A DNA stretch of 35,057 nt from a virus (lineage: Duplodnaviria > Heunggongvirae > Uroviricota > Caudoviricetes), in the IMG/VR virus record IMGVR_UViG_2563366917_000007. One strand, written 5' to 3'. The position numbers and the translations under genes are program-made. The notes beneath the pieces are model-generated. The model saw only the letters and a list, made by a program, of their open reading frames with translations, made no database searches and was not told the DNA's origin. Of this stretch, positions 1 through 34,210 are shown piece by piece. Positions within the stretch are counted from its first letter, which is position 1. Each line of letters starts with the position of its first letter.

Positions 1-237
1 ATGATGTCTATAAATGAAGTTGTTAAACAGGACTGGCACCCCGCGCATGTTGTCGCGGCGGTGCATGTAAAAGGTTTTACTTTACGCTCTCTGTCCATTG
101 AAGCCGGTTTAAACCAGGATTCTTTAAAGAATGCCCTGTACCGCAAATGCCCAAAATATGAGCGCATTATTGCTGATGCTATTGGTGTTGCGCCGGAGGA
201 GATCTGGCCCAGCCGTTACGCTCGTAAGGTGGCATAA
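1..237 (+). CDS. ner: Ner-like DNA-binding regulator (Ner/Nlp family); may be 5'-truncated by the window edge
   Basis: 78-aa ORF directly upstream of the transposase; C-terminal IWPSRY motif and overall layout typical of the Ner/Nlp HTH family; position matches Mu ner. Confidence 0.75.
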   Translation: MMSINEVVKQDWHPAHVVAAVHVKGFTLRSLSIEAGLNQDSLKNALYRKCPKYERIIADAIGVAPEEIWPSRYARKVA

Positions 238-239
238 AA

Positions 240-2327
240 ATGTTTGTATCAGTTAATGAGCTTGTAGGGTTACCAGGTATGCCGGGAACTGCGCAAGGGG
301 TGCGGTATTCCATAAGGAAACTGGCCTCATCTGAGCATTTCAGGCGCAAACGTGCGGGTTCAAAAACCATTGAATACAGCATCGACTGCCTCCCTCCGGT
401 TACACAACGGGCGTTACGTGAGCGACATGTAGCTCAACTGATGGCAAGCGCCCCGCGGGAGATAACTACCCAGCCTCCTGTAAAGCGTGAACGCAAACAA
501 AATGTTGTACAGCCTGTTGAGGCATATCGCGGTTCGCCACAATTGGTAGAAGAGCGTCTGAATGCGCTTACGGAAAATCAACGTAAAGTTGCAGAAGCGC
601 GCATTGCTCTTGTCTGTGAAGTTCTACGAATTAGCCAGGAGCCGGGATTCAGTTGTGCCAGCGCTATACGTTTTATTGTGTCGCGGTTAGCGCAGGGTAA
701 CCTGGAAGAACGCCTGGAATCTTTGGTCATTACTGCTAATGCCCGTAAAGGAAAAGAGCGAACTCTGAGCGCAATTACGCTCAAACGTTGGATAGCTGCG
801 TTTAACAAAGCACAGAATGCCGCAGAACGACTGCTGTTACTGGCACCAGGAAAGCGCGACGAAATAAAACCGGAAGAAATTAGCTGGCTGCCTGAATTTC
901 TGGCGCAGTATCGTCAGGCTAACGGCAGGCCTATGTCTGAAGCCTATGAGGATTTTGTCGCTGATTGGCAGCGTCGCCATGCGGACGAACCATACATGCT
1001 GGAGGTGATGCCTTCCTATGATGTTGTCCGGTATGCCATGAAAAAACTGCCGGAAGTGGTGAAACAAAAAGGGCGCGTTACCGGCAGTGAATACCGTCAG
1101 CTTGAAGGATTCACCCGCCGCGACTGGACAGCTATGCCGGTGAATTATGTCTGGATTGGTGACGGTCACGGTATGAAGCTGAAATGTGCACATCCGATCC
1201 ACGGGCGTCCATTCTCACCGGAAGTTACATTTGTGATCGACGGTGGAACCCGGTTTGTTGTTGGCTGGAGTCTTGACCTTGCCGAGAACGTGTTCGCCGT
1301 TGCCGGTGCGATACAGCACGGCATTCGCAACCACGGAAAACCGTTTCTGTATTACTCGGATAATGGTTCTGGTGAAACGGCTGACATACTGGACAAAGAG
1401 GTCGTGGGTATTCTGCCCCGCCTGGGGATTAAACACCCTACCGGTATTGCCGGTAATCCACAGGGGCGCGGCATTATTGAACGCCTGAACCGGACACTGC
1501 CGATGCGTATAGCCAGGAGGTATCGCACCTATTTTGGCAAGGGTGCTGACCGGGAATCGTTGCGTGTACTTAACCGTGATCTGCGTTCAGCGTTTAACGC
1601 CATGCAACAGGACAAGCCTCTGAACGACCGCCAGAAAGCTGCAATGCGCGAGCTACCATCGTGGGCGGAGCTTATTGAGGCTATTCGTGAAGGCGTGGAA
1701 TGGTACAACAACCGCCCGCATTCTGAGCTGCCAATGAAACCGAACGGGCGGCATTACAGCCCGGCAGAGTTCAGAAAAAAACGCCTGGCAGAAGAAGACA
1801 CCGAAATTGAGTGGCTGAGTGATCTTGAGCTGCGCGACATGTTCCGCCCGATGGTGGAACGCCCGGTAAGACGGTGCGAAATTCAGTGGCTGAACAATAT
1901 TTACTACGCGCCGGAGTTGCGTGACGAACACGGTCGCAAAGTACTTATCAGTTATGACATTCATGACGCCGAGCGAATTACGGTACGTCGCAAGGACGGC
2001 AGCTTTATCTGTGAGGCGATATGGAACGGCAATAAACGCACAGCCTTTGCTGTCAGTGCTGAATATCACAAACAACAGCAGCGTATTAAAGGAATGCGCA
2101 AACGTGCTGAGGAAAAAATTCGTGATGCTGAGGATGAAGGCATTCAGATACTGGAGCACAAACAGGCTGAACCCTGGCTGGATAATGTTTATCGCCCGGT
2201 TGGCAATACGGTAACCATCCAGCAACAGGATTATGAGGAGGATTACGACGAAGATTATGAACGCGATTTCAGGCTGGGTTTGCAGAAGCTTGTAGCCATA
2301 CAGGAACAGGATGATCCGCTGGCCTGA
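240..2327 (+). CDS. A: Mu-type DDE transposase (A protein)
   Basis: 695-aa ORF immediately after ner; candidate DDE triad in IGDGHG / YYSDNGSG / IIERLN segments; acidic C-terminal tail; followed by the B ATPase as in Mu. Diverged from the Mu A sequence as I recall it. Confidence 0.85.
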   Translation: MFVSVNELVGLPGMPGTAQGVRYSIRKLASSEHFRRKRAGSKTIEYSIDCLPPVTQRALRERHVAQLMASAPREITTQPPVKRERKQNVVQPVEAYRGSPQLVEERLNALTENQRKVAEARIALVCEVLRISQEPGFSCASAIRFIVSRLAQGNLEERLESLVITANARKGKERTLSAITLKRWIAAFNKAQNAAERLLLLAPGKRDEIKPEEISWLPEFLAQYRQANGRPMSEAYEDFVADWQRRHADEPYMLEVMPSYDVVRYAMKKLPEVVKQKGRVTGSEYRQLEGFTRRDWTAMPVNYVWIGDGHGMKLKCAHPIHGRPFSPEVTFVIDGGTRFVVGWSLDLAENVFAVAGAIQHGIRNHGKPFLYYSDNGSGETADILDKEVVGILPRLGIKHPTGIAGNPQGRGIIERLNRTLPMRIARRYRTYFGKGADRESLRVLNRDLRSAFNAMQQDKPLNDRQKAAMRELPSWAELIEAIREGVEWYNNRPHSELPMKPNGRHYSPAEFRKKRLAEEDTEIEWLSDLELRDMFRPMVERPVRRCEIQWLNNIYYAPELRDEHGRKVLISYDIHDAERITVRRKDGSFICEAIWNGNKRTAFAVSAEYHKQQQRIKGMRKRAEEKIRDAEDEGIQILEHKQAEPWLDNVYRPVGNTVTIQQQDYEEDYDEDYERDFRLGLQKLVAIQEQDDPLA

Positions 2328-2400
2328 ATAAAAAAACAGTCCGCGGGAACGGACTGTTAAACGAAGGAAACAAAGCTGATTTGAATAAACGGAGAATAAT

Positions 2401-3333
2401 ATGACCGATATTAATGATGTTTTCAACACGATTAACACACTTATTACTGACGGCGTAAAAACACAAAGCGCTATTGCTAAAGAAGCGGGGGTGTCGGAGG
2501 CCACTCTTTCTGAACTTCGCAAAGGCCGTTACAAAGGTGATACCGAAGGGATGCATGACAAATTACTGATGTGGCATCAGAGCTGGCAAAAAAGTCTGGA
2601 GTTACCTGGCGCACCACAACTTGTGGAAACACAAACCCTCCGTGATTTGCGCGAGCTGTTTCAGACCGTGCGTGTTATGGGCTGTATCAGCGTTCTGGTT
2701 GGTGTGCCGGGTGTTGGTAAAACCGTTGCGGCCCGTGAATACAGTAACCGTGTATCTAATACCTGGATGGTGACCCTTTCCCCTGCACACTCAACAGTGA
2801 CTGAGTGTCTGCTGGAGCTGGCAGACGCGCTGGGAATTGATAATCCGCAAAGAAATAAAGGCGCATTGACCCGCGCCATTCGCAAAAAACTGAATGGCAC
2901 ACGCGGTCTGGTTATTGTGGATGAAGCTGACCACCTGAGCATGGACGGGCTGGAGCAGTTACGCGCCATTCAGGATGCAACCGGCGTCGGGATGGTATTG
3001 ATTGGCAACCCACACCAGTTAGCCAAAGCCACACACCGGGGAACAGATGACCTTGCACGTTTGTTCAGTCGTTTCGCCAGAACAAAGCAACTACGTAAAG
3101 CCAAAAAGGCTGACGTGGTGGCAATTGCGAAAGCCTGGGGCATTGAGGGCGAAGATGAATTATCACTCATGCAGAGCATCGCGGAAAAACCAGGTGCATT
3201 ACGTGTATTAACTCATACGCTGAATCAGGCGTGGCTGGCTGCCAGCGGGAAAGGCGTTCCTCTATCCAAAGGCTACATTAAAGCAGCTTTTAAAGAGGTT
3301 TACAGCAACCCGAAATTACTGAACTGGTGGTAA
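2401..3333 (+). CDS. B: Transposition target-DNA activator ATPase (B protein)
   Basis: 310 aa; Walker A GVPGVGKT and Walker B-like VIVDEADH; N-terminal HTH-like segment; position after A; good RBS (GGAGAATAAT-ATG). Confidence 0.85.
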   Translation: MTDINDVFNTINTLITDGVKTQSAIAKEAGVSEATLSELRKGRYKGDTEGMHDKLLMWHQSWQKSLELPGAPQLVETQTLRDLRELFQTVRVMGCISVLVGVPGVGKTVAAREYSNRVSNTWMVTLSPAHSTVTECLLELADALGIDNPQRNKGALTRAIRKKLNGTRGLVIVDEADHLSMDGLEQLRAIQDATGVGMVLIGNPHQLAKATHRGTDDLARLFSRFARTKQLRKAKKADVVAIAKAWGIEGEDELSLMQSIAEKPGALRVLTHTLNQAWLAASGKGVPLSKGYIKAAFKEVYSNPKLLNWW

Positions 3334-3344
3334 GGGGATAAATA

Positions 3345-8963: not shown

Positions 8964-9386
8964 ATGCAGCATGATTTATTTGAACACGATCCGGCAATTC
9001 GCCAGTTAATCGGGCATATTGATAACATCCCGGCCCCGGAACTGGAATCACGCTGGCCCCGTTCAGTGGTTGATCTGATTGATGTTCTGGAAAACGAACT
9101 GAAACGCCAGAACGTCAGCAATCCCCGTGAGCTTGCCCGTAAACAGGCCGTTGCCCTGTCCTGTTTTCTGGGGGGGCGGCAGTTTTATATCCCCTGCGGC
9201 GATACTATCCTGACCGCGTTACGCGACGATTTGCTTTACTGCCAGTTCAATGGTCGTAACATGGAAGAACTGCGTCGCCAGTACCGCCTGTCCCAGCCGC
9301 AGATCTACCAGATTATTGCCCGCCAGAGAAAGCTGCATACACGACGTCATCAGCCTGATCTGTTCTCACCTGAAAGCCAGAAATAA
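8964..9386 (+). CDS. C: C protein, late-gene transcription activator (Mor/C family)
   Basis: 140 aa (same length as Mu C); paralogous to Mor; RBS GGGGGAAAAT-ATG. Confidence 0.8.
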   Translation: MQHDLFEHDPAIRQLIGHIDNIPAPELESRWPRSVVDLIDVLENELKRQNVSNPRELARKQAVALSCFLGGRQFYIPCGDTILTALRDDLLYCQFNGRNMEELRRQYRLSQPQIYQIIARQRKLHTRRHQPDLFSPESQK

Positions 9387-9477
9387 CCGACATCCTGCCG
9401 GTTATTTCCTGTCACCATAATCCCGCACCTGCCATCTGATTTTTTAGACTGCCATCAGAGCATTTTTTCAGGGAAGC
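9387..9477 (+). promoter_or_regulatory. Candidate C-dependent late promoter upstream of lys (Plys)
   Basis: 91-bp gap between C and lys; contains TCCCGCACCT (9421-9430), a 10-mer also present upstream of I. Confidence 0.4.
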
Positions 9478-15093: not shown

Positions 15094-16393
15094 TCTGGCG
15101 TATGCCGCACGCCTCCCGCCAAAGGAGGCTGTCGCGTATTTCCGCGCCAAAGGCTACAACATCACCTGGAACTGGTACGAACAACTGGCAGACGCGCACG
15201 CCCGCGCCTTTACCGTTGCCAAAGCCACCCGGATGGATGTCCTGACCACAATCCGTGAGGAAGTGGAGCGGGCTGTCAGTGAAGGCATCACCCGTGAGGA
15301 ATTTACCCGCACACTGGCCCCCCGGTTGCAAAAACTCGGATGGTGGGGAAAACAAATCATCGTGGATGCAGACGGAAACGCAAAGGTAATCGAGCTGGGC
15401 AGTCCGCGTCGTCTGGCAACCATTTATAACGTCAATACCCGTACAGCGTATGGGGCAGGACGTTATGCGCAGATGATGAATACCGCCGATTTGTACCCGT
15501 ACTGGCAGTACGTTGCCGTTATGGATGGCAGAACACGCCCGGAACATGCGCGGCTGCACAATATGGTTTTCCGGTATGATGACATTTTCTGGCAGACGCA
15601 TTACCCGCCCAATGGCTGGAACTGCCGCTGTCGCGTCCGGGCGGTGTCTGCGGCCCGCATGAAAGAACTGGGGCTACAGATCAGTTATGGTGCGTCATTC
15701 ATGAATACCCGCGAAGTGGATGCCGGTACGGATGAAAGCACCGGAGAGATTTTCCGCACATCGTCAACCACGTTTGACAACGGTCGGGTAAAAATGACGC
15801 CGGATGTGGGCTGGTCATATAACCCCGGTTCGGCGGCATTTGGTACGGATCAGGCACTGATTCGAAAACTGGTGGAAATTCGCGACGCGCAGTTGCGTGG
15901 GCAGGTTGTTCAGACGCTGAATAACAGCCGGGAGCGTCAGCTTGCTTTTTCCCTCTGGCTTAAACGTCTGGCAGGATCACGTCAGACCGGTCATGAAATC
16001 CGGGCACTGGGTTTTATGACGGAATCGGTAGCTGAAGCCGTACATCAGCGCACCGGGAATATGCCAGCCCGTCTGCTTGTGATGAACGGGAAAAGTCTGG
16101 CGACCACTGCTGATGTCGCCCTGAAACCGGAGGATTTACAGCATCTGCCGTCGCTGATGGCAAAACCACAGGCAGTATTGTGGGACAGGGAGAACCACCA
16201 GTTGCTGTATGTTGTGGCAACCCGTGACGGCATGGCCCGGATTGTGGTCAGAACATCACAGACAGTCGGCAGGCAGAATGACCGTGCGGATGTGCTGGTC
16301 AGTATCAGCCGCGTATCTGCACAGTCGCTTGAAAGCGCGATTGCTGACGGGATGATTGACGTACTGGAGGGACATGTGGAGGTGAATAAGTGA
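15074..16393 (+). CDS. F: Head morphogenesis protein (Mu F family)
   Basis: Large ORF after the portal; start uncertain (15038 or 15074). Confidence 0.75.
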   Translation: MPQQTIDLAYAARLPPKEAVAYFRAKGYNITWNWYEQLADAHARAFTVAKATRMDVLTTIREEVERAVSEGITREEFTRTLAPRLQKLGWWGKQIIVDADGNAKVIELGSPRRLATIYNVNTRTAYGAGRYAQMMNTADLYPYWQYVAVMDGRTRPEHARLHNMVFRYDDIFWQTHYPPNGWNCRCRVRAVSAARMKELGLQISYGASFMNTREVDAGTDESTGEIFRTSSTTFDNGRVKMTPDVGWSYNPGSAAFGTDQALIRKLVEIRDAQLRGQVVQTLNNSRERQLAFSLWLKRLAGSRQTGHEIRALGFMTESVAEAVHQRTGNMPARLLVMNGKSLATTADVALKPEDLQHLPSLMAKPQAVLWDRENHQLLYVVATRDGMARIVVRTSQTVGRQNDRADVLVSISRVSAQSLESAIADGMIDVLEGHVEVNK

Positions 16394-16860
16394 GTCTTGA
16401 TATGAACGTTGCCGTGGATGTGCGACGTATTCAGCTTGCACTGGATGAACTGGGAACCGTTACACGTGACCGCGCCATTCCCCGTGTGATGGCTGCGGCG
16501 CTGCTGTCATCCACGGAACAGGCATTTGAACGGCAGGCAGACCCGGATACAGGGAAAGGCTGGGAAGCGTGGAGCGATTCGTGGCAGGCATGGCGTCAGG
16601 ATCATGGTTTTGTTCCGGGCAGTATCCTTACCCTGCATGGCGATCTGGCACGCAGCATTACCACCGATTATGGACAGGATTATGCCCTGATTGGTTCGCC
16701 AAAAATTTATGCTGCCATTCATCAGTGGGGCGGTACACCCGATATGGCACCCCGCCCGGCAGGCGTTCCTGCGCGTCCTTATATGGGGCTGGATAAGACC
16801 GGGGAACAGGAAATTTTTGATGCCATCAGAAAACGCGTCAGCGCCGCTCTGAGGCAATAA
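16390..16860 (+). CDS. G: Virion morphogenesis protein (Mu G family)
   Basis: 156 aa from GTG 16390 (GGAGG RBS) or ATG 16402; length and position match Mu G. Confidence 0.7.
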   Translation: MSLDMNVAVDVRRIQLALDELGTVTRDRAIPRVMAAALLSSTEQAFERQADPDTGKGWEAWSDSWQAWRQDHGFVPGSILTLHGDLARSITTDYGQDYALIGSPKIYAAIHQWGGTPDMAPRPAGVPARPYMGLDKTGEQEIFDAIRKRVSAALRQ

Positions 16861-17056
16861 ACTGAATCAGACATGAAATCAGCCGCACAGATTTTTTAAA
16901 ACGCGCCACGGGATTTTTAAACCGGTATTTAACGGTGTATGAATCCCGTTTTATCTTCCTTCCACTTTCTTTCTCCAGTACTCAAATAGCATAACCCCAG
17001 ATTTTCCCGCACCTCCCGCAAACTGACTGCTCACAAACCATGATGAGCAGCAGGAC
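16861..17056 (+). promoter_or_regulatory. Central 196-bp noncoding gap between G and I: candidate late promoter (PI) and/or centrally located strong gyrase site
   Basis: Only long intergenic gap in the structural region; AT-rich tracts; contains TCCCGCACCT (17005-17014) at similar spacing to the start codon as in the lys upstream region. Confidence 0.4.
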
Positions 17057-18142
17057 ATGAAAAAACACGCGATTGGCATTGCCGCACTGAATGCGCTGTC
17101 CATTGACGATGACGGCTGGTGCCAGTTATTGCCTGCCGGTCATTTCAGTGCCCGTGATGGTCGTCCGTTTGATGTAACAGGCGGTCAGGGGTGGTTCATC
17201 GACGGTGAGATTGCCGGGCGTCTGATTGAAGGCGTTCGCGCGCTCAACCAGGACGTGCTGATTGATTACGAGCATAACCAGCTACGTAAGGACAAAGGAT
17301 TACCCCCGGAACAACTCGTCGCGGCTGGCTGGTTTAACGCCGATGAAATGCAGTGGCGTGAAGGTGAAGGGTTATTTATCCACCCACGCTGGACGGCGGC
17401 GGCCCAGCAGCGCATCGATGACGGCGAATTTGGTTATCTCTCTGCGGTTTTTCCGTATGACACCGCCACCGGTGCGGTGCTGCAAATCCGCCTTGCTGCG
17501 CTGACCAATGACCCCGGTGCCACCGGCATGAAAAAGCTGACCGCACTGGCGGCAGACCTTCCCGACATCCTTCAACAGGAGAACAAACCCATGAATGAAA
17601 CGCTGCGCAAGCTGCTTGCGCGTCTTGGGGTGACGGTCCCCGAAAATGCAGACATCACCGATGAACAGGCCAGCGCGGCCCTGAGTGCGCTTGATGCGCT
17701 CGAAACAGATGCCGGAAAAGTGGCGTCGTTATCCGCCGAACTGGAAAAGGCACAGAAAGCCGCCGTTGACCTGACGAAATACGTCCCGGTGGAAAGCTAC
17801 AACGCCCTGCGTGATGAACTGGCACAGGCGACTGCACTAAGCGCCACAGCCAGCCTGAGCGCCGTTCTGGACAAGGCGGAACAGGAAGGCCGCATTTTCA
17901 AAAGCGAACGTGCCTATCTGGAACAGCTTGGCGGTCAGATTGGCGTGGCGGCACTGTCGGCACAGCTTGAGAAAAAACAGCCCATCGCTGCGTTATCTGC
18001 CATGCAGACCACCACAGCGAAAATCCCGTCGCAGGAAAAAACGGCTGTGGCGGTGCTGTCTGCTGATGAACAGGCAGCAGTGAAGGCGCTCGGCATTACA
18101 GAGGCTGAGTATCTGAAAATGAAACAGGAACAAGAAAAATGA
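17057..18142 (+). CDS. I: Prohead protease/scaffold (Mu I family; nested scaffold Z expected from an internal start)
   Basis: 361 aa; Ala/Glu/Lys-rich coiled-coil C-terminal half typical of a scaffold; directly precedes the major capsid gene. Confidence 0.8.
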   Translation: MKKHAIGIAALNALSIDDDGWCQLLPAGHFSARDGRPFDVTGGQGWFIDGEIAGRLIEGVRALNQDVLIDYEHNQLRKDKGLPPEQLVAAGWFNADEMQWREGEGLFIHPRWTAAAQQRIDDGEFGYLSAVFPYDTATGAVLQIRLAALTNDPGATGMKKLTALAADLPDILQQENKPMNETLRKLLARLGVTVPENADITDEQASAALSALDALETDAGKVASLSAELEKAQKAAVDLTKYVPVESYNALRDELAQATALSATASLSAVLDKAEQEGRIFKSERAYLEQLGGQIGVAALSAQLEKKQPIAALSAMQTTTAKIPSQEKTAVAVLSADEQAAVKALGITEAEYLKMKQEQEK

Positions 18143-23131: not shown

Positions 23132-25576
23132 ATGACCGGGAAACGCTTAAAAGCGTCAGTCATTATTGACCTTAATGGCAATCTTTCCCGGCGTTCCCGC
23201 CAGTATTCGAACCAGATAAACGCCCTGTCCCGTAGCGGGCAAAGTTCCCTTCGTGCCCTGCGTATGGAGGTTGTGCGCGTTTCTGGTGCCATTGACAGAA
23301 TGGGTTCTCTGTCAACCCGTACATTCCGAATGCTGTCAGCCGGGGCGCTGGGTATCGCTGGCGTGGGTTACACCGCCAATAAACTGTTTATTGGTGCAGC
23401 CGCCCAGCGTGAGCAACAGATCATCGCCATGAACTCGCTGTATCACGGCGATAAGGTCAGAGCGCAGGCCATGATGGCCTGGGCAAAGCAGAACGCGAAG
23501 GACACCACGTGGGGGCTGAGTGGTGTTCTTGATGAGATCCGTTCGTCGAAAGGCTTCGGCATGACGGATGAACAGACGAAACAGTTCATCACCATGTTGC
23601 AGGATCAGGGGGCCATGCACGGCTGGGATTTACCCACTGCACAGGGTGCCTCACTGCAACTGAAACAGATGTTTGCCCGCCAGCAAATCACAGCGGCGGA
23701 TGCCAACCTGCTGACCGGTTACGGTATCAACGTTTATCAGGCGCTGGCTGATGCAACGGGAACGGACGTTAAAAAAATCCGTGATCTGGGTACAAAGGGC
23801 AAGCTGGGCATGAAATCCATTCTGACGGTATTCAGAACGCTGTCAGAACAGTCAAAAGGTGCACAGGCCAGTGCGATGAACTCCTGGGACGGGATGTTCG
23901 CCCAGATGGAAGCCAACCTGCTTGAATTTCGCATAAAGGTGGCAAACAGCGGCCCCTTTGAAGAAATCAAGAACGAGATGCGCCGGGTGCTTAACTGGCA
24001 CGACATGGCGGATAAATCCGGGGAACTTGACGCACTGGCAGAAAACATTGGTCAGAAATTTCTGACCACGTTCAGAACGGTAAAAATCGCGGCGCAGGAA
24101 TTATGGCGCTGGCTGAAACCGGGCAAGGATGCGCTGGTATGGGTTGACCAGAATATTGTCAGCCTGAAAAAACTGGCTGCTGTTCTGGTGTCCGTCTGGC
24201 TTGCCAACAAAGCTCTGAGGACAGGCTGGGCCGTGGCTAAACCCTCATGGCAGGTTGCCAGTTATCCGTTTAAAACCGGGCGTCGTATGTGGCGCCGGAT
24301 GCGGAACCGCAAACGTGAGCAGGCAGGTCTGCCGATCCCGGCGCCCATGACAACTGAGGCGCTGTTGCAGGGCACCGGCATTCAGCGTGTGTTTGTCATC
24401 AACTGGCCCCGTGGATTTGGTGGCTACGGGAGTGGCGGCGGTCGTCGCGGACGCGGCGGCGGAAGAACGCCCCCGCTGTTACCCCGCCAGCCGCTGTTGC
24501 TGCCCGGGCCACGACCACTGCCATTACCTGCACCACGCCCTGTGCCGGCATTACCCCCACCCGGCGTTCCGGCAGCAGCACGCCCCGCGCCACGACCTTT
24601 ACCCGGTAAATCCGGTCTTCCGGGCAGGTTTGCAGGCAGCGCTGCCGCGCAGCAGGTTACGGGAGCGGCAGGAACGCTGGCGAATGCCGGGCGTACTGTC
24701 AGCAGACTGCTTTCCGGTGCCGGAAACAGGCAGACCGCGCCATCTCCGGTCGTCCCGGTAACACCGCGCCCCGCGCCCCGCCCTTTGCCCGCTAAATCCG
24801 GTCTTCCGGGCAGGCTGGCAGGCAGCGCTGCCGCGCAGCAGGTTACGGGAGCGGCAGGAACGCTGGCGGATGCCGGGCGTACTGTCAGCAGACTGCTTTC
24901 CGGTGCCGGAAACAGGCAGCCCGCGCCATCTCCGGTCGTCCCGGTAACACCGCGCCCTGCGCCACGCCCTTTGCCCGCTAAATCCGGTCTTCCGGGCAGG
25001 CTGGCAGGCAGCGCTGCCGGGCAACGGGTTACGGGAACGGTCGGAAAACTGGCTGATGTCGGGCGTGCCGTTGGCGGGTGGTTTTCCGGTATCGGGAACA
25101 GACTCGCAGACAGCGCAATCGGTAGGGTTGTGACAAAAGGTGCCGGGGCGCTGGGCTGGATGGGGAAAGGTGCCGGTCGTGCCCTGTCACGTCTGGGTGG
25201 CCCGGTAATGGGGGCACTCCAGCTTGCCCCCGTCCTGATGGATGAGCAGGCGTCAACCCATGAAAAAGCAGGCGCAATTGGCAGTACAGCCGGTGCATGG
25301 CTCGGCGGTGCCGTTGGCAGCCTTGCCGGACCGCTGGGTACGGTTGCCGGTGCCACGTTGGGCAGTGTCGCCGGGGAGTATCTGGGCGGTTTTGTAACCG
25401 ACCTGTATCAGAAATGGACGGCCCCGGATAAGGAACCGCAGGAACAAAAAGTGAATGCGGAAGCCTCGCTGCGCGTCGAACTTGGCGAGGGGTTACGTCT
25501 GACCAGTTCCCGCGTCACCGAGGACGGTATGGGGCTGAATATTTACGCGGGCGATAACTACATTACAGGCTGGTAA
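23132..25576 (+). CDS. Y: Tail tape measure protein
   Basis: Start at ATG 23132 (RBS AGGAAAT) rather than ORF-track 23039; ~814 aa; helical N-terminal half, Gly/Pro-rich low-complexity C-terminal half. Confidence 0.8.
24581..25080 (+). repeat. 186-bp near-perfect tandem repeat (~2.7 copies) inside the tape measure gene
   Basis: Anchor TAAATCCGGTCTTCCGGG recurs at 24607, 24793 and 24979 (period 186 bp = 62 codons); encoded copies differ at only a few residues. Confidence 0.85.
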
Positions 25577-25580
25577 AACC

Positions 25581-27068
25581 ATGTTTGAAGATGCTTTAAA
25601 TGCCGTTAATGCTGTCCGGGATAAAATCAGCGGTGGTAAGAAAACAACCGGCAAAGGCACGTTTCGTAACGTGCCGTTTCTCGTCATCGAGGAGCAAAAA
25701 CAGGCTGGCGGACGTCGCCTGGTTAAACGCGAGTACCCGTTACGTGATACCGGCGGCGTCAATGACCTGGGGAAAAAGCTTCGCTCCCGTACATTCAGCG
25801 CCTGCATTCTGAACAGCAACGCAGAAACAGCCAGAGATGAAGCGGGTGCGCTGATGGATGCTCTTGATGCTCCGGGTGGCGGTGAGCTGGTACATCCTGA
25901 TTTCGGCACTGTGGACGTCATGGTGGATTCATGGGAATGCCGCACTAAAGCGGATGAACTGAATTATTACGCGTTCACCGTTACCGTTTATCCGTCGTTG
26001 CAGGATACTGCCCCGGACTCAGAGACAGACACCAGTGCAGCCGTACCGGCACAGGCCGTTGCTGTAACCGGTTCTCTGGGAGATACGCTGTCCTCTGTCT
26101 GGCAGACCGTAAAAGATGGCACTGCGGCGGCAACCGCCGTGATGGAAGCTGTAACCGGTGTCATCGATGATATCAGTGATGCGGTGGACAATCTGGGGGT
26201 TACGCAGACTGTCAGCGGTCTGATGGGATCGCTTTCTGCGATGAAAGGCTCTGTGACCAGCCTGATTAACCAGCCTGCCATGCTGGCCTCCTCGCTGATG
26301 GGGGCGCTGTCCGGCGTTTCATCGTTATGCGATACCCGGACAGCATTTTCCACATGGAACCGTCTGGCGCAGCGATTCGAACGTCGCCATGCCGCCACCG
26401 CAGGCAGACAGGGGACAATCACAACCTCGTACAACAGTCCGGTTGCAGAAAAAAATATTGCCACACTGAACTACGTCATGCTGGCAGCAGCACAGACATA
26501 CCGGGCGGAGGCAGCAAGCCAGGCACTGACTGCGGCACTGGATTTCAGTCGCCGGATGGATAATGCCGCCCGTGCACCTGTACTGGATGCCCCGTCCACC
26601 ACAACCGGCACAGCCAGCGGGGCCAGCAGCACATCCGCTACCGTCACACAGGGACAGTTACAGTTAACTGCCATAACCCCGGACGGCGGTTTTTCACAGG
26701 TATCCTTTTCAGACAGTGGTACAGCCACGCCCCCGGTATTTGAAAGTGTGTCCGATATCGGAAAAACAGCCGCCATGCTGGGGGCAGCGCTGGATACCGT
26801 CATTCTGACGGCATCTGAGCAGGGTTTTTCGACAGACAGCGCTCAGCTTACGCAACTGCGCCTGCTGGTTGTTGCTGACCTGGAAAAACGCGGACTGCAA
26901 CTGGCGGGCAGTGAAATGCACAGCCTGCCGGAGACGATGCCCGCAGTGGTGGCCCTGTACCGTTACACAGGAAACAGCCGGAACTGGCAACGGCTGGCCC
27001 GCAGGAATGGCAGCAGCAACCCGTTATTTGTTCCCGGTGGTGTCAGTACTGAGGTGATTAATGAGTAA
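25581..27068 (+). CDS. N: DNA circularization protein N-like (Mu gp43 family)
   Basis: 495 aa, directly after the tape measure gene; synteny. Confidence 0.7.
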
Positions 27069-30831: not shown

Positions 30832-33395
30832 TGTTTTATATTGATAACGACAGCGGCGTAACCGTCATGCCGCCCGTATCCGCCCAGCGTAGTGCTATCG
30901 TTCGCTGGTTTTCAGAAGGTGACGGGAATAATGTTATCACATGGCCCGGCATGGACTGGTTTAATATTGTGCAGGCGGAGTTATTAAACACGCTGGAAGA
31001 AGCCGGTATTCAACCGGATAAAACAAAATTAAACCAGCTTGCACTGTCCATTAAAGCCATTATGGGCAATAACGCGCTGCTGATAAAAAATAACCTCAGC
31101 GAAATAAAAACGGCCGGGGCATCAGCACAGCGCACAGCACGTGAAAATCTGGGTATTTATGATGCCAGTGTGAGCAAAAAGGGGCTGGTTCAGCTAAGCA
31201 GTGCAACAAACAGCACCAGTGAAAAGCTGGCAGCAACGCCAAAAGCGGTCAAGGCAGCAAATGACAACGCAAATTCACGTCTGGCGAAAAATCAGAACGG
31301 TGCAGATATCCAGGATAAATCAGCTTTTCTGGACAATGTTGGCGTTACCAGCCTGACGTTTATGAAAAACAATGGCGAAATGCCGCTTGATGCTGATCTG
31401 AATACATTTGGTCCCGTTAAGGCTTATCTGGGGATCTGGTCTAAAGCTACCTCAACTAACGCAACACTGGAGAAAAATTTTCCGGAAGATAATGCTGTCG
31501 GTGTGCTTGAGGTTTTTGCTGCCGGCAATTTTGCAGGCACGCAACGCTTTATCACGAGAGACGGCAATGTATACATGCGTAAACTCGCCAATAAGTGGAA
31601 TGGTACTGATGGTCCATGGGGCGTATGGCGTCACACTCAATCAGCTACCCGCCCTTTGAGTACGACTATAGACCTGAATACGCTTGGAGCCGCCGAACAT
31701 CTTGGTTTATGGCGTAACAGTAGCTCGGCTATAGCTTCATATGAACGCAATTATCCAGAGGAAGGCGGCTTTGCTCAGGGGACGCTTGAGATCCTCGAAG
31801 GCGGGAATTATGGAAGAACACAACGTTATACCACTCGCCGTGGAAATATGTATGTCCGCTGCCTTGCGGCAAGCTGGGATGCATCAAATCCGCAGTGGGA
31901 ACCGTGGTTAAGAGTCGGTCATCAGTCAGAGAGTCGTTATTACGACGGGGATTTGAATGATGTGACTTCACCAGGTATTTACAGCGTTACAGGTAAAGCG
32001 ACCAACGGTCCAGTACTGGACGGAAACGGCGTGACTGTACTCGGCATTCTGGAAGTGTTGAGGCGGTTTGATGGTGTTAATGTATGGCAGCGTTATACAA
32101 CTGCCGGAACAGGTACAACCCTTAAAGGCCGCACCTTTGAGCGCGTCTTTACCGGCAGCTCATGGAGCGAATGGCGGGAAGTCTACACCTCGTATTCACT
32201 TCCCCTGAATCTGGGTATCGGCGGTGCTGTGGCAAAGCTCACCAGCCTGGACTGGCAGACCCACGACTTTGTGCCGGGCAGTCTGATAACCGTTCGGCTT
32301 GATAACATGACCAACATTCCCAACGGTATGGACTGGGGCGTCATTGATGGCAACCTGATAAACATCGCAGTTGGTCCGAGTGATGATTCCGGTACGGGGC
32401 GCTCAATGCATGTATGGCGCAGCACTGTAAGTAAAGCGAACTACCGCTTTTTTATGGTGCGTATTTCAGGAAATCCGGGACGCCGCACGATTACAGCAAG
32501 ACGAGTACCAATCATTGACGAAGCCCAGACATGGGGCGCGAAACAGACATTCAGTGCTGGCCTTTCTGGTGAACTGTCCGGCAATGCGGCGACAGCAACA
32601 AAGCTGAAAACAGCCCGTAAAATTAATAACGTTTCGTTTGATGGAACATCAGATATTAACCTGACGCCGAAAAATATTGGTGCATTTGCTTCAGGAAAAA
32701 CAGGAGACACCGTTGCGAATGATAAAGCCGTTGGATGGAACTGGAGTAGCGGAGCCTATAACGCAACTATTGGTGGGGCATCAACGTTAATTCTTCATTT
32801 TAATATCGGGGAAGGAAGTTGTCCCGCCGCCCAGTTTCGCGTTAATTATAAGAACGGTGGTATTTTTTATCGTTCTGCTCGTGACGGTTACGGATTCGAG
32901 GCTGACTGGTCTGAGTTTTATACCACAACGCGAAAACCTACAGCGGGAGATGTCGGTGCACTGCCGTTATCTGGTGGTCAATTGAATGGTGCTCTGGGTA
33001 TAGGAACATCCAGTGCTCTTGGCGGTAATTCGATTGTTTTGGGTGATAATGACACGGGCTTTAAACAAAATGGTGATGGTAATCTGGATGTTTATGCTAA
33101 TAGCGTCCATGTTATGCGCTTTGTCTCCGGAAGCGTTCAAAGTAATAAAACCATAAATATTACGGGGCGTGTTAATCCCTCGGATTACGGTAACTTTGAT
33201 TCCCGCTATGTGAGAGATATCAGACTTGGCACACGTGTTGTCCAGACCATGCAGAAAGGGGTGATGTATGAGAAAGCAGGGCACGTAATTACCGGGCTTG
33301 GTATTGTCGGTGAAGTCGATGGTGATGACCCCGCAGTATTCAGACCAATACAAAAATACATCAATGGCACATGGTATAACGTTGCGCAGGTGTAA
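30831..33395 (+). CDS. S: Tail fiber protein (S-like), unusually long, with three internal domain repeats
   Basis: 854 aa; fiber-like N-terminal attachment region; three ~80-aa repeats (approx. aa 187-268, 279-362, 372-452) sharing D-L-N-T-x-G ... NYPE ... TQR(F/Y)xTR ... W; fiber-like Gly/Ser/Thr-rich C-terminal region. Confidence 0.8.
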   Translation: MFYIDNDSGVTVMPPVSAQRSAIVRWFSEGDGNNVITWPGMDWFNIVQAELLNTLEEAGIQPDKTKLNQLALSIKAIMGNNALLIKNNLSEIKTAGASAQRTARENLGIYDASVSKKGLVQLSSATNSTSEKLAATPKAVKAANDNANSRLAKNQNGADIQDKSAFLDNVGVTSLTFMKNNGEMPLDADLNTFGPVKAYLGIWSKATSTNATLEKNFPEDNAVGVLEVFAAGNFAGTQRFITRDGNVYMRKLANKWNGTDGPWGVWRHTQSATRPLSTTIDLNTLGAAEHLGLWRNSSSAIASYERNYPEEGGFAQGTLEILEGGNYGRTQRYTTRRGNMYVRCLAASWDASNPQWEPWLRVGHQSESRYYDGDLNDVTSPGIYSVTGKATNGPVLDGNGVTVLGILEVLRRFDGVNVWQRYTTAGTGTTLKGRTFERVFTGSSWSEWREVYTSYSLPLNLGIGGAVAKLTSLDWQTHDFVPGSLITVRLDNMTNIPNGMDWGVIDGNLINIAVGPSDDSGTGRSMHVWRSTVSKANYRFFMVRISGNPGRRTITARRVPIIDEAQTWGAKQTFSAGLSGELSGNAATATKLKTARKINNVSFDGTSDINLTPKNIGAFASGKTGDTVANDKAVGWNWSSGAYNATIGGASTLILHFNIGEGSCPAAQFRVNYKNGGIFYRSARDGYGFEADWSEFYTTTRKPTAGDVGALPLSGGQLNGALGIGTSSALGGNSIVLGDNDTGFKQNGDGNLDVYANSVHVMRFVSGSVQSNKTINITGRVNPSDYGNFDSRYVRDIRLGTRVVQTMQKGVMYEKAGHVITGLGIVGEVDGDDPAVFRPIQKYINGTWYNVAQV

Positions 33396-33398
33396 ATT

Positions 33399-33926
33399 AT
33401 GCAGCATTTAAAAAACATTAAGTCAGGTAATCCAAAAACAAAAGAACAATATCAGCTAACAAAGAATTTTGATGTTATCTGGTTATGGTCCGAAGACGGA
33501 AAAAACTGGTATGAGGAAGTAAGTAATTTTCAGCCAGACACAATAAAGATTGTTTACGATGAAAATAATATTATTGTCGCCATCACCAGAGATGCTTCAA
33601 CGCTCAACCCTGAAGGTTTTAGCGTTGTCGAGGTTCCTGATATTACCGCCAACCGACGTGCAGACGACTCAGGTAAATGGATGTTTAAGGATGGTGCCGT
33701 GATTAAGCGGATTTATACGGCGGACGAACAGCAGCAACTGACAGAATTACAGAAGGCAACTTTGCTTTCCGAAGCTGAATCCGTGATTTTGCCGCTGGAA
33801 CGCGCTGTCAGGCTGAATATGGCAACAGATGAGGAGCACAGCCGACTGGAGGCATGGGAACGCTACAGCGCTCTGGTCAGCCGCGTGGATACGGCAAAGC
33901 CAGAATGGCCACAAAAACCAGAGTAA
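33399..33926 (+). CDS. U: Tail fiber assembly protein (U-like)
   Basis: 175 aa; C-terminus [25 protein letters not shown] is the typical Tfa signature; directly after the fiber. Confidence 0.8.
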
Positions 33927-33954
33927 AAATTAAGGCCCGATAGCGGGCCTTCTC

Positions 33955-34060
33955 TTATTCTGGTTGTTCGGAAAACGTTACTGGCAGGCTGGAGGGGTCT
34001 GTATATTCGACCTTCTGCGCATAGAGCATCCACTCGGTTAATTTTTGTTTATTCTCGTCG
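33955..34060 (-). pseudogene. Remnant of a second, inverted tail fiber assembly gene (U'-like C-terminal fragment)
   Basis: Minus-strand ORF ends ...LTEWMLYAQKVEYTDPSSLPVTFSEQPE, matching the Tfa C-terminal signature, tail-to-tail with U as in an invertible G segment; the upstream part lacks Tfa features. Confidence 0.4.
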
Positions 34061-34101
34061 GAAATGATACCCAGCCGTAGCGAACGCATATAGAAAACGA
34101 C

Positions 34102-34210
34102 GATCGAATCAATTGAATCGATCGGTAATACAGATCGATTATGCCCCAATAACCACACTCAACCCATGATGTTTTTTAAGATAGTGGCGAATTGATGCAA
34201 AGGAGGTGAG
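34102..34210 (+). promoter_or_regulatory. mom operon control region: three clustered Dam sites (CGATCG) plus candidate C-dependent Pmom
   Basis: GATC at 34102-34105, 34120-34123 and 34133-34136, all within 35 bp and all in CGATCG context, ~75-110 bp upstream of com; AGGAGG RBS before com. Confidence 0.6.

What the first reader, a model, noticed from the sequence alone, without database searches (positions are those of the whole stretch)
16861..17056. Central 196-bp noncoding gap between G and I: candidate strong gyrase site and PI promoter
This is the only long intergenic region in the otherwise overlapping structural operon, and it lies near the midpoint of the phage. As I recall, Mu has a centrally located strong gyrase site between G and I that is needed for efficient replicative transposition, and a C-dependent late promoter (PI) upstream of I.
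Basis: partly seen in the sequence, partly recalled or inferred. Interest (0 to 1): 0.5.

Follow-up and report, generated by a model that had tools for sequence, protein, structure and literature searches.

The report
Phage Mu gyrase site and PI promoter
The 196-base gap between two head genes of this Mu-type prophage is the well-studied central gyrase-binding site of phage Mu followed by a late promoter, both nearly identical to Mu itself, so it is real and functional-looking but already known.

Summary
An ORF-free stretch lies at 16861-17056, between the G homologue (16390-16860) and the I homologue (17057-18142). It is the longest non-coding gap in the late morphogenesis region.

The window is a Muvirus prophage, 99.93% identical to one in E. 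coli strain S6. The gap is 98% identical to Mu 17860-18055 and 99.5% to D108.

Mapping Mu's annotation and published data onto the window gives four parts:
- The strong gyrase site (SGS) spans about 16813-16945, with the 4-bp cleavage stagger AATC at 16877-16880. Its left arm runs into the end of G.
- The right arm (16881-16945) is identical to Mu.
- A terminator-like hairpin lies at 16908-16949, inside the right arm.
- The C-dependent late promoter PI lies at 16978-17044 and is 100% identical to Mu.

All three differences from Mu near the site fall in the 16 bp left of the cut, the arm reported as dispensable. Across 13 diverged lineages, invariant gap columns occur only in three phased TTTAAA-type motifs of the right arm, the C box and the -10 hexamer.

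Nothing new was found.

The parts
16390..16860 (+). G homologue (virion morphogenesis / neck protein), the upstream flank. Its last 48 bp are also the distal left arm of the gyrase site.
   Evidence: ORF. Annotated as Mu gp31/G.
16813..16945 (.). Strong gyrase site (SGS): the stretch equivalent to the 133-bp Mu SGS fragment used in vitro by Sutormin et al.
   Evidence: The reverse complement of the published 133-bp fragment matches window 16813-16945 with 4 mismatches. Three are natural variants (16863, 16871, 16875). One (16882) is a change in the laboratory fragment relative to both Mu GenBank records.
16813..16876 (.). SGS left arm, reported dispensable in Mu. It holds all three differences from Mu near the site.
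   Evidence: Dispensability of the left arm is stated. 6 of the 16 gap positions left of the cut vary among 15 close relatives.
16877..16880 (.). 4-bp cleavage stagger AATC (GATT on the - strand). The + strand is cut at 16876^16877 and the - strand at 16881^16880.
   Evidence: GenBank places the 'gyrase cut site' at Mu 17879/17880, which maps to window 16880/16881. The cryo-EM paper gives scissile bonds A/A and 5'-T/GATTT-3' and boxes GATT. The window sequence at these positions matches. The stagger is invariant among close relatives.
16881..16945 (.). SGS right arm, essential in Mu, which wraps the GyrA C-terminal domain and presents the T segment. It holds three phased T-tract/A-tract motifs at 16892-16901, 16914-16921 and 16928-16932, with T/A junctions 21 and 12 bp apart.
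   Evidence: Identical to Mu. 21-bp direct repeat found. 2 of 65 sites vary among close relatives. 11 invariant columns across 13 diverged lineages, with spacing 20-21 and 11-12 bp. Role of the right arm.
16908..16958 (+). Terminator-like hairpin (9-bp outer stem ACGGGAUUU/GAAUCCCGU, inner 4-bp stem, -19.2 kcal/mol) followed by the tail TTTTATCTT. It is the likely end of the Plys-to-G transcript and lies inside the SGS right arm.
   Evidence: TransTermHP feature in AF083977 at Mu 17908-17953, which maps to window 16909-16954. Folds; inverted repeat. Hairpin plus U-tract at a similar place in most diverged lineages. Not found by the simple pattern scan. Prediction only.
16978..17044 (+). Late promoter PI, 100% identical to the Mu feature.
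   Evidence: AF083977 feature 17977-18043. Identity and register with Plys, PP and Pmom.
16979..16998 (+). C-protein binding region of PI (about -52 to -34), containing CATAACCCC at 16990-16998, which is shared with the other three late promoters.
   Evidence: In-register alignment of the four late promoters. The C footprint and the 19-bp required region in Plys are described. 5 invariant columns across 13 lineages. No variation among close relatives.
17019..17024 (+). -10 hexamer CAAACT of PI. There is no -35 hexamer. The transcription start is inferred near 17029-17033.
   Evidence: It is in register with the Pmom TAAGAT hexamer, which lies 19 bp from ACCACA as published. Hexamer positions 2, 4 and 6 are invariant in 30 sequences. 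No sigma-70 consensus promoter was found by the scan, as expected for an activator-dependent promoter.
17045..17056 (+). Ribosome-binding region of I (GAGCAGCAGGAC before the ATG).
   Evidence: RBS feature in AF083977 at Mu 18044-18046. GAGCAGG..CATG is nearly invariant in relatives.
17057..18142 (+). I homologue (head protease, with the internal scaffold Z start): the first gene of the PI transcript.
8964..9386 (+). Gene C, the trans-acting activator needed by PI.
   Evidence: 138/140 aa identical to Mu C.

Best explanation
The G-I gap is a compound cis-acting region with the same layout as in phage Mu.

1. **Strong gyrase site.** It is centred on the stagger AATC at 16877-16880. Host DNA gyrase binds here in one register. 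The A/T-phased right arm (16881-16945) wraps one GyrA C-terminal domain and presents a T segment, which gives unusually efficient, processive supercoiling. Because the site sits at the middle of the prophage, a supercoiled loop grows with the site at its apex. This brings the two prophage ends together for transposase-mediated synapsis, so replicative transposition starts promptly after induction.
2. **Terminator-like hairpin.** A hairpin with a U-rich tail, embedded in the right arm, probably ends the Plys-lys-to-G late transcript.
3. **Promoter PI.** It has a -10 hexamer (CAAACT) and a C-binding box but no -35 hexamer. [quoted passage not shown] That starts the head-gene transcript at I.

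Shown here: sequence identity, coordinates, conservation and polymorphism patterns. Taken from Mu experiments in the literature: gyrase cleavage, the replication phenotype and C-dependence. Inferred: that these properties carry over to this near-identical copy, the transcription start position, and terminator function.
For: - **Identity to Mu.** 98% over the gap and 99.5% to D108. The right arm and PI are identical to Mu.
- **Mu annotation.** Cut site, terminator and PI all map into the gap.
- **In vitro fragment.** The 133-bp Mu SGS fragment used in vitro maps to 16813-16945.
- **Cleavage register.** It agrees with the cryo-EM scissile bonds A/A and T/GATTT.
- **Published function of the SGS.** Deleting it delays replication by about 100 min, and the central position is optimal. 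The right arm is essential and the left arm dispensable. The site is needed for synapsis of the prophage ends and for the Mu domain.
- **Natural variation mirrors that asymmetry.** 6/16 variable sites lie left of the cut and 2/65 in the right arm. Third codon positions of G and I vary at 10% and 17%.
- **Conservation in diverged lineages.** Across 13 lineages with I protein 46-99% identical, invariant gap columns occur only in the three TTTAAA-type motifs (11 of 44 columns), the C box (5 of 21) and the -10 (3 of 7). Motif spacing is 20-21 and 11-12 bp.
- **Promoter register.** The four late promoters of the window align in register, sharing cATAAcCcC and -10 hexamers.
- **Activator C.** It is 99% identical to Mu C. 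Its mechanism at PI is described.
- **Composition.** A/T periodicity of 16893-16955 is in the 99.5th percentile of the window.
Against: - No biochemical or genetic test was possible; function rests on homology.
- Crude stand-ins for the published gyrase motif did not single the site out. Agreement with the GC pattern of the consensus string ranked it 48th of 69,850 positions. Raw matches ranked it about 2,300th. The real position-frequency matrix was not available because the supplement is truncated.
- The short Lockshon-Morris core consensus is matched 10/13, a score that 1,238 of 70,076 positions reach.
- The terminator was not found by the simple pattern scan. Its position and sequence vary between lineages, and no paper held here reports a mapped 3' end.
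- The three substitutions next to the cut (16863, 16871, 16875) have not, to my knowledge, been tested, although D108 and many prophages share them.
Confidence: 0.93

Rival explanations
1. The conserved triple TTTAAAC motif is mainly a binding site for a sequence-specific protein, either a nucleoid protein such as IHF or Fis or a phage protein. On this view it is not a shape signal for gyrase wrapping.
For: The motifs are conserved as sequence (TTTAAACG three times), not only as A/T phasing, in 30 sequences. IHF, Fis and HU are needed for the Mu prophage domain.
Against: In some lineages TTTAAA becomes TTTTGAA while the position is kept, which fits a bend or flexibility signal. The cryo-EM structure shows the AT repeats of the right arm facing the GyrA C-terminal domain. 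Genetic dissection assigns the right arm to gyrase function.
Confidence: 0.07
2. The gap encodes a small protein, the '31.5' ORF annotated in D108 and Mu_3F6. That would correspond to window 16866-16994.
For: D108 (GQ357916) and Mu_3F6 annotate a 42-aa CDS here.
Against: In the window and in D108 the frame starts with ATC. The ORF lister, which needs ATG/GTG/TTG, does not report it. Lengths and frames are not kept in diverged relatives, where conservation sits in short DNA motifs rather than a reading frame. Neither curated Mu record annotates it.
Confidence: 0.03
3. The hairpin at 16908-16949 acts mainly as a DNA-level or RNA-level structure, a transcription terminator or a cruciform. On this view the conservation of the region reflects that role and not gyrase binding.
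For: The hairpin has -19.2 kcal/mol plus a T-rich tail and 20-nt inverted-repeat arms. TransTermHP predicts a terminator in Mu. Hairpin plus U tract recurs in most diverged lineages.
Against: The invariant bases are in the loops and A/T tracts, not in the stems, and stem positions shift between lineages. The first TTTAAA motif lies outside the hairpin and is equally conserved. The two roles are not exclusive, so this is better seen as an added function than a replacement.
Confidence: 0.1

Closest known systems
[quoted passage not shown] 2006)
   Same: Same position between the same genes and near the genome centre. 129/133 identical to the in vitro fragment and 130/133 to wild-type Mu. Identical cleavage tetranucleotide and identical right arm.
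   Different: Three substitutions in the dispensable left arm (16863 T, 16871 A, 16875 G), shared with D108 and many prophages. The host element differs from Mu elsewhere: early region, tape measure, and no gin/G segment.
Mu late promoter PI, one of four C-dependent late promoters (Margolin, Rao and Howe 1989, PMID 2522923)
   Same: 67/67 identical to the annotated Mu feature. Same C box and -10 hexamer, and same distance to the I start codon. The activator C is 138/140 identical.
   Different: None within the promoter. One upstream difference at 16962 (C for T).
SGS of the Mu-like prophage Sp18 of E. coli O157:H7 Sakai, reported as the only foreign site that could replace the Mu SGS
   Same: Same G-I location (176-bp gap). 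It shares the second and third A/T motifs (GATTTTCTAACCTGTATTTAACGG) and a hairpin plus U tract.
   Different: BLAST finds no similarity in the gap. The first motif and the core differ. G and I proteins are only 54% and 46% identical.
Plasmid strong gyrase sites (pSC101 par, pBR322) and the genome-wide 130-bp Topo-Seq gyrase motif
   Same: About 130 bp bound, a central cleavage region and flanking roughly 10.5-bp G/C-A/T periodicity.
   Different: These sites did not substitute for the Mu SGS in replication. The Mu-type site owes its strength to one highly deformable arm.

Membership tests
Mu-type strong gyrase site (SGS) | Lies between G and I, near the centre of the transposable prophage | tested here: met
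   Cut at 16880 between G (ends 16860) and I (starts 17057). This is 48% of the window and about 49% of the full S6 prophage.
Mu-type strong gyrase site (SGS) | Sequence homology to the experimentally defined Mu SGS, including the cleavage tetranucleotide | tested here: met
   4 mismatches in 133 bp to the in vitro fragment, one of which is a laboratory change. AATC/GATT is present at the position fixed by GenBank and cryo-EM.
Mu-type strong gyrase site (SGS) | Right arm with phased A/T bending signals (the essential determinant) | tested here: met
   Right arm identical to Mu. Motif junctions are 21 and 12 bp apart. Invariant in 30 sequences. Periodicity is in the 99.5th percentile.
Mu-type strong gyrase site (SGS) | Top score with the Topo-Seq gyrase position-weight matrix within the phage genome | tested here: inconclusive
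   The matrix was not available. Proxies built from the consensus string ranked the site 48th of 69,850 at best.
Mu-type strong gyrase site (SGS) | Single strong quinolone-induced gyrase cleavage at the site | not testable with these tools
   Needs a cleavage assay. Known for Mu.
Mu-type strong gyrase site (SGS) | Deletion delays replicative transposition; the central position is optimal | not testable with these tools
   Needs prophage genetics. Known for Mu.
C-dependent Mu late promoter | -10 hexamer without a usable -35 hexamer | tested here: met
   CAAACT at 17019-17024, in register with the other three late promoters. No sigma-70 consensus match in the region. Feature described.
C-dependent Mu late promoter | C-binding element at about -52 to -34, shared with Plys, PP and Pmom | tested here: met
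   CATAACCCC at 16990-16998 aligns with CCATAATCCC, CCATAACCCC and CAATAACCAC of the other three promoters. Conserved in diverged lineages.
C-dependent Mu late promoter | Cognate activator C encoded by the same phage | tested here: met
   ORF 8964-9386, 138/140 identical to Mu C.
C-dependent Mu late promoter | Transcription starts here only when C is present | not testable with these tools
   Needs a reporter or in vitro transcription assay. Shown for Mu PI.
Intrinsic (Rho-independent) terminator | G+C-rich stem-loop followed directly by a U run | tested here: inconclusive
   Hairpin of -19.2 kcal/mol with tail UUUUAUCUU and a TransTermHP call in Mu. However, the stem is A/U-rich with internal loops, and the simple scan does not report it.

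The most novel reading that the evidence does not exclude
The three elements may be packed together for a functional reason rather than by accident. Gyrase bound at the SGS wraps the terminator hairpin DNA. Depending on how the 156-bp loop seen by cryo-EM is laid out, gyrase may place the PI promoter region as, or next to, its T segment. On that reading, gyrase occupancy at the centre of the prophage would be mechanically coupled to termination of the lys-to-G transcript and to firing of PI. Conversely, late transcription could displace gyrase once replication is no longer needed. The conserved gap length of about 200 bp in lineages whose sequence has otherwise diverged would then reflect this geometry.
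Probability: 0.1. Interest if true: 0.5.

Novelty: already known. Interest (0 to 1): 0.1.

Why it matters
The finding mainly matters as a correct annotation. It marks this E. coli prophage as a Mu-type transposable phage that keeps an intact central gyrase site, an intact PI promoter and an intact C activator, so it is probably replication- and morphogenesis-competent.

The comparative results add modest support to published genetics. Natural variation piles up in the dispensable left arm and avoids the right arm. Three phased TTTAAA-type motifs are invariant in relatives from Kluyvera, Erwinia, Apirhabdus and other Enterobacterales. These motifs could help recognise SGS-type sites in unannotated Mu-like prophages.

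Tried and rejected
1. **Gyrase motif proxies.** I scanned the window with stand-ins for the Topo-Seq gyrase motif built from the published 133-bp consensus string. Raw S/W and exact-match scores were dominated by G+C-rich coding DNA; the site ranked about 2,300th. A composition-corrected correlation placed it 48th of 69,850. The real matrix (sheet DS10) is truncated in the held supplement, so this test stays inconclusive.
2. **Lockshon-Morris core consensus.** The match is 10/13, which is too common to be informative.
3. **Simple promoter/terminator scan.** It found nothing in 16400-17500. That is expected for an activator-dependent promoter and uninformative for the interrupted hairpin.
4. 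**Rfam search of 16600-17300.** No match.
5. **Primary SGS papers.** I could not read Pato 1990, Oram and Pato 2004 or Oram 2006; they are not held. Statements about them come from later papers that cite them.
6. **The D108 '31.5' ORF.** Considered and rejected as a gene: it has an ATC start and no frame conservation.
7. **Mapped 3' end of the lys transcript.** A search for a paper reporting one found none in the library.

Full report
**1. The observation**

The G-like ORF runs 16390-16860 and the I-like ORF 17057-18142. Nothing with a standard start codon and at least 40 codons lies between them on the + strand.

The window matches an annotated prophage of E. coli strain S6 over its whole length, with 23 mismatches, no gaps and 99.93% identity. 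It runs from the ner-like gene to the end of mom. On that annotation, 196 bp is the longest intergenic distance in the late region. The runners-up are:
- 144 bp, largely covered in Mu by the frameshifted tail chaperone product;
- 94 bp;
- 66 bp.

The gyrase cut lies at 48% of the window and about 49% of the full prophage. In Mu it lies at 48.7%.

**2. What the sequence is**

The gap is 98.0% identical to Mu 17860-18055 and 99.5% identical to D108 and Mu_3F6. Thirteen phage records and 44 complete E. coli genomes carry it nearly unchanged.

There are four differences from Mu: 16863 (T for A), 16871 (A for G), 16875 (G for A) and 16962 (C for T).

The curated Mu record AF083977 annotates these features in this stretch:

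| Feature | Mu coordinates | Window coordinates |
|---|---|---|
| Gyrase cut site | 17879/17880 | 16880/16881 |
| TransTermHP terminator | 17908-17953 | 16909-16954 |
| Late promoter PI | 17977-18043 | 16978-17044 |
| RBS of I | 18044-18046 | 17045-17047 |

**3. The gyrase site**

The 133-bp Mu SGS fragment used in vitro by Sutormin et al. is the reverse complement of window 16813-16945, with four mismatches. Three are the natural variants above. The fourth, at 16882, is a change in the laboratory fragment relative to both Mu GenBank records. It may be one of the nuB up-mutations mentioned, but I could not verify that.

The Topo-Seq consensus is palindromic about its positions 66-69. That places the 4-bp stagger at window 16877-16880 (AATC, or GATT on the other strand). 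The cryo-EM paper independently reports scissile bonds between two A residues on one strand and at 5'-T/GATTT-3' on the other, and boxes GATT as the cleavage site. The window has exactly these bases. The site therefore begins 48 bp inside G, and the gap holds only its core and right arm.

The literature read here states the following:
- Deleting the SGS delays Mu replication by about 100 min, and the central position is optimal.
- The site is needed for synapsis of the prophage ends and for the Mu chromosomal domain.
- The left arm can be removed with little effect, whereas the right arm is essential. The right arm carries phased bending signals and wraps one GyrA C-terminal domain to present the T segment.

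**4. New comparative evidence**

I collected 44 related loci, from E. coli genomes, one genome per species, and IMG/VR.

*Close relatives.* Among 15 distinct sequences, variable sites are distributed as follows:

| Segment | Variable sites |
|---|---|
| Gap left of the cut | 6 of 16 |
| Cleavage stagger | 0 of 4 |
| Right arm | 2 of 65 |
| PI (none in the C box or -10 hexamer) | 3 of 54 |
| Third codon positions of G | 10% |
| Third codon positions of I | 17% |

So the window's three substitutions near the cut fall in the one stretch that varies freely. That matches the published dispensability of the left arm.

*Diverged relatives.* I took 13 lineages whose I protein is 46-99% identical to the window's (E. 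coli PEC422, O157 Sp18-like, Kluyvera, Erwinia, Apirhabdus and uncultured contigs). A gap of 176-237 bp is kept. Its invariant columns fall in only three places:
- three T-tract/A-tract motifs of the right arm (11 of 44 columns);
- the C box (5 of 21);
- the -10 hexamer (3 of 7).

The motif junctions lie 17-18, 38 and 49-50 bp right of the cut. That is 20-21 and 11-12 bp apart, or about two and one helical turns. In the window the first two motifs form a 21-bp direct repeat.

A/T periodicity at 10-11 bp for 16893-16955 is in the 99.5th percentile of the window. This is supportive but not unique.

**5. The hairpin**

Positions 16908-16949 fold into a hairpin of -19.2 kcal/mol, followed by TTTTATCTT. 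It corresponds to the TransTermHP feature in Mu.

Most diverged lineages also have a hairpin with a U tract between the gyrase core and the C box. Its exact position and stems differ, and the invariant bases are not in the stems. I read it as the probable terminator of the Plys-to-G transcript, overlapping the right arm. This is a prediction: the simple scan does not report it, and I found no mapped 3' end in the library.

**6. The promoter**

The four late promoters of the window align in register:

| Promoter | Window coordinates |
|---|---|
| Plys | 9404-9470 |
| PI | 16978-17044 |
| PP | 26660-26726 |
| Pmom | 34136-34202 |

They share cATAAcCcC at feature positions 13-21 and a -10 hexamer at positions 42-47. 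The register is anchored by Pmom, where TAAGAT lies 19 bp from ACCACA as published.

For PI this gives CATAACCCC at 16990-16998 and CAAACT at 17019-17024. The start is inferred near 17029-17033. PI is 67/67 identical to Mu.

Published work shows the following:
- Late promoters lack -35 hexamers.
- C protects about -30 to -55.
- In Plys, a 19-bp region from -52 to -34 is required.
- At PI, C acts at the closed-to-open complex step.
- C also needs the beta sliding clamp.

The window's C protein is 138/140 identical to Mu C.

**7. Rivals**

- A small ORF ('31.5') is annotated in D108 and Mu_3F6 inside the gap. It starts with ATC and has no frame conservation in relatives, so I reject it.
- A protein-binding reading of the TTTAAAC motifs cannot be excluded. 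It is less likely, given the structural and genetic data for gyrase and the TTTTGAA variants that keep position rather than sequence.
- No Rfam family matches.

**8. Verdict**

The feature is the already known Mu SGS plus PI in a natural Mu/D108-type prophage. Interest is low.

The only open idea worth noting concerns the tight packing of gyrase right arm, terminator and promoter within a length-conserved gap. It might reflect mechanical coupling between gyrase wrapping and late transcription. I give that a probability of about 0.1.

Noticed in passing
window 24581-25066: The tape-measure gene carries a 186-bp tandem repeat, 2.6 copies at 93% match. This makes the gene longer than in Mu.
   Followed up: partly
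window 31310-34135: There is no Gin invertase and no invertible G segment. tblastn with Mu Gin finds nothing, and the Mu stretch 33658-35637 is absent. The tail-fibre gene has a different, longer C-terminal part, annotated 'pyocin knob domain' in the S6 prophage, and a fragment of a second assembly gene remains.
   Followed up: partly
window 1-3340: The early module differs from Mu. Ner is 46% identical and B 44%, and only the first 61 residues of the transposase align, at 36%. At the DNA level this part matches only Yersinia phages vB_YpM_5 and vB_YpM_6.
   Followed up: partly
window 16866-16994: D108 and Mu_3F6 records annotate a 42-aa ORF ('31.5') inside the gap. It starts with ATC, covers the gyrase right arm and the hairpin, and is not conserved as a frame in relatives. 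It is probably a spurious call.
   Followed up: yes
window 16870-16878 and 17054-17062: A 9-bp exact repeat GACATGAAA lies just left of the gyrase cut and again at the I start codon. Two of its bases (16871 and 16875) are sites where the window and D108 differ from Mu. It is probably a coincidence.
   Followed up: no
L008, L030, L036, L048 (G-I gap, first about 26 nt right of the aligned cut): In these diverged lineages the first A/T motif is part of a near-perfect palindrome (GGCGTTTAAAatcaTTTAAACGCC) next to the aligned cleavage position. The Mu-type sequence lacks this palindrome.
   Followed up: no
window 16950-17034: The cryo-EM gyrase-Mu217 structure constrains a 156-bp loop, with the right arm presenting the T segment. 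Depending on how that length is split around the cut, the T segment would fall on or near the PI C box or -10 region. The figure with the mapped sequence is not held, so this is unverified.
   Followed up: partly
L006 1065-1145 (E. coli O157:H7 Sp18-like prophage): RefSeq annotates a 'tRNA-OTHER' on the minus strand between the F-like and G-like genes of this Mu-like prophage.
   Followed up: no
L012 and L045 (Edwardsiella-type loci), 810-1485: The G-I interval is 676 bp instead of about 200 bp in these two loci, which suggests an insertion or an extra gene there.
   Followed up: no
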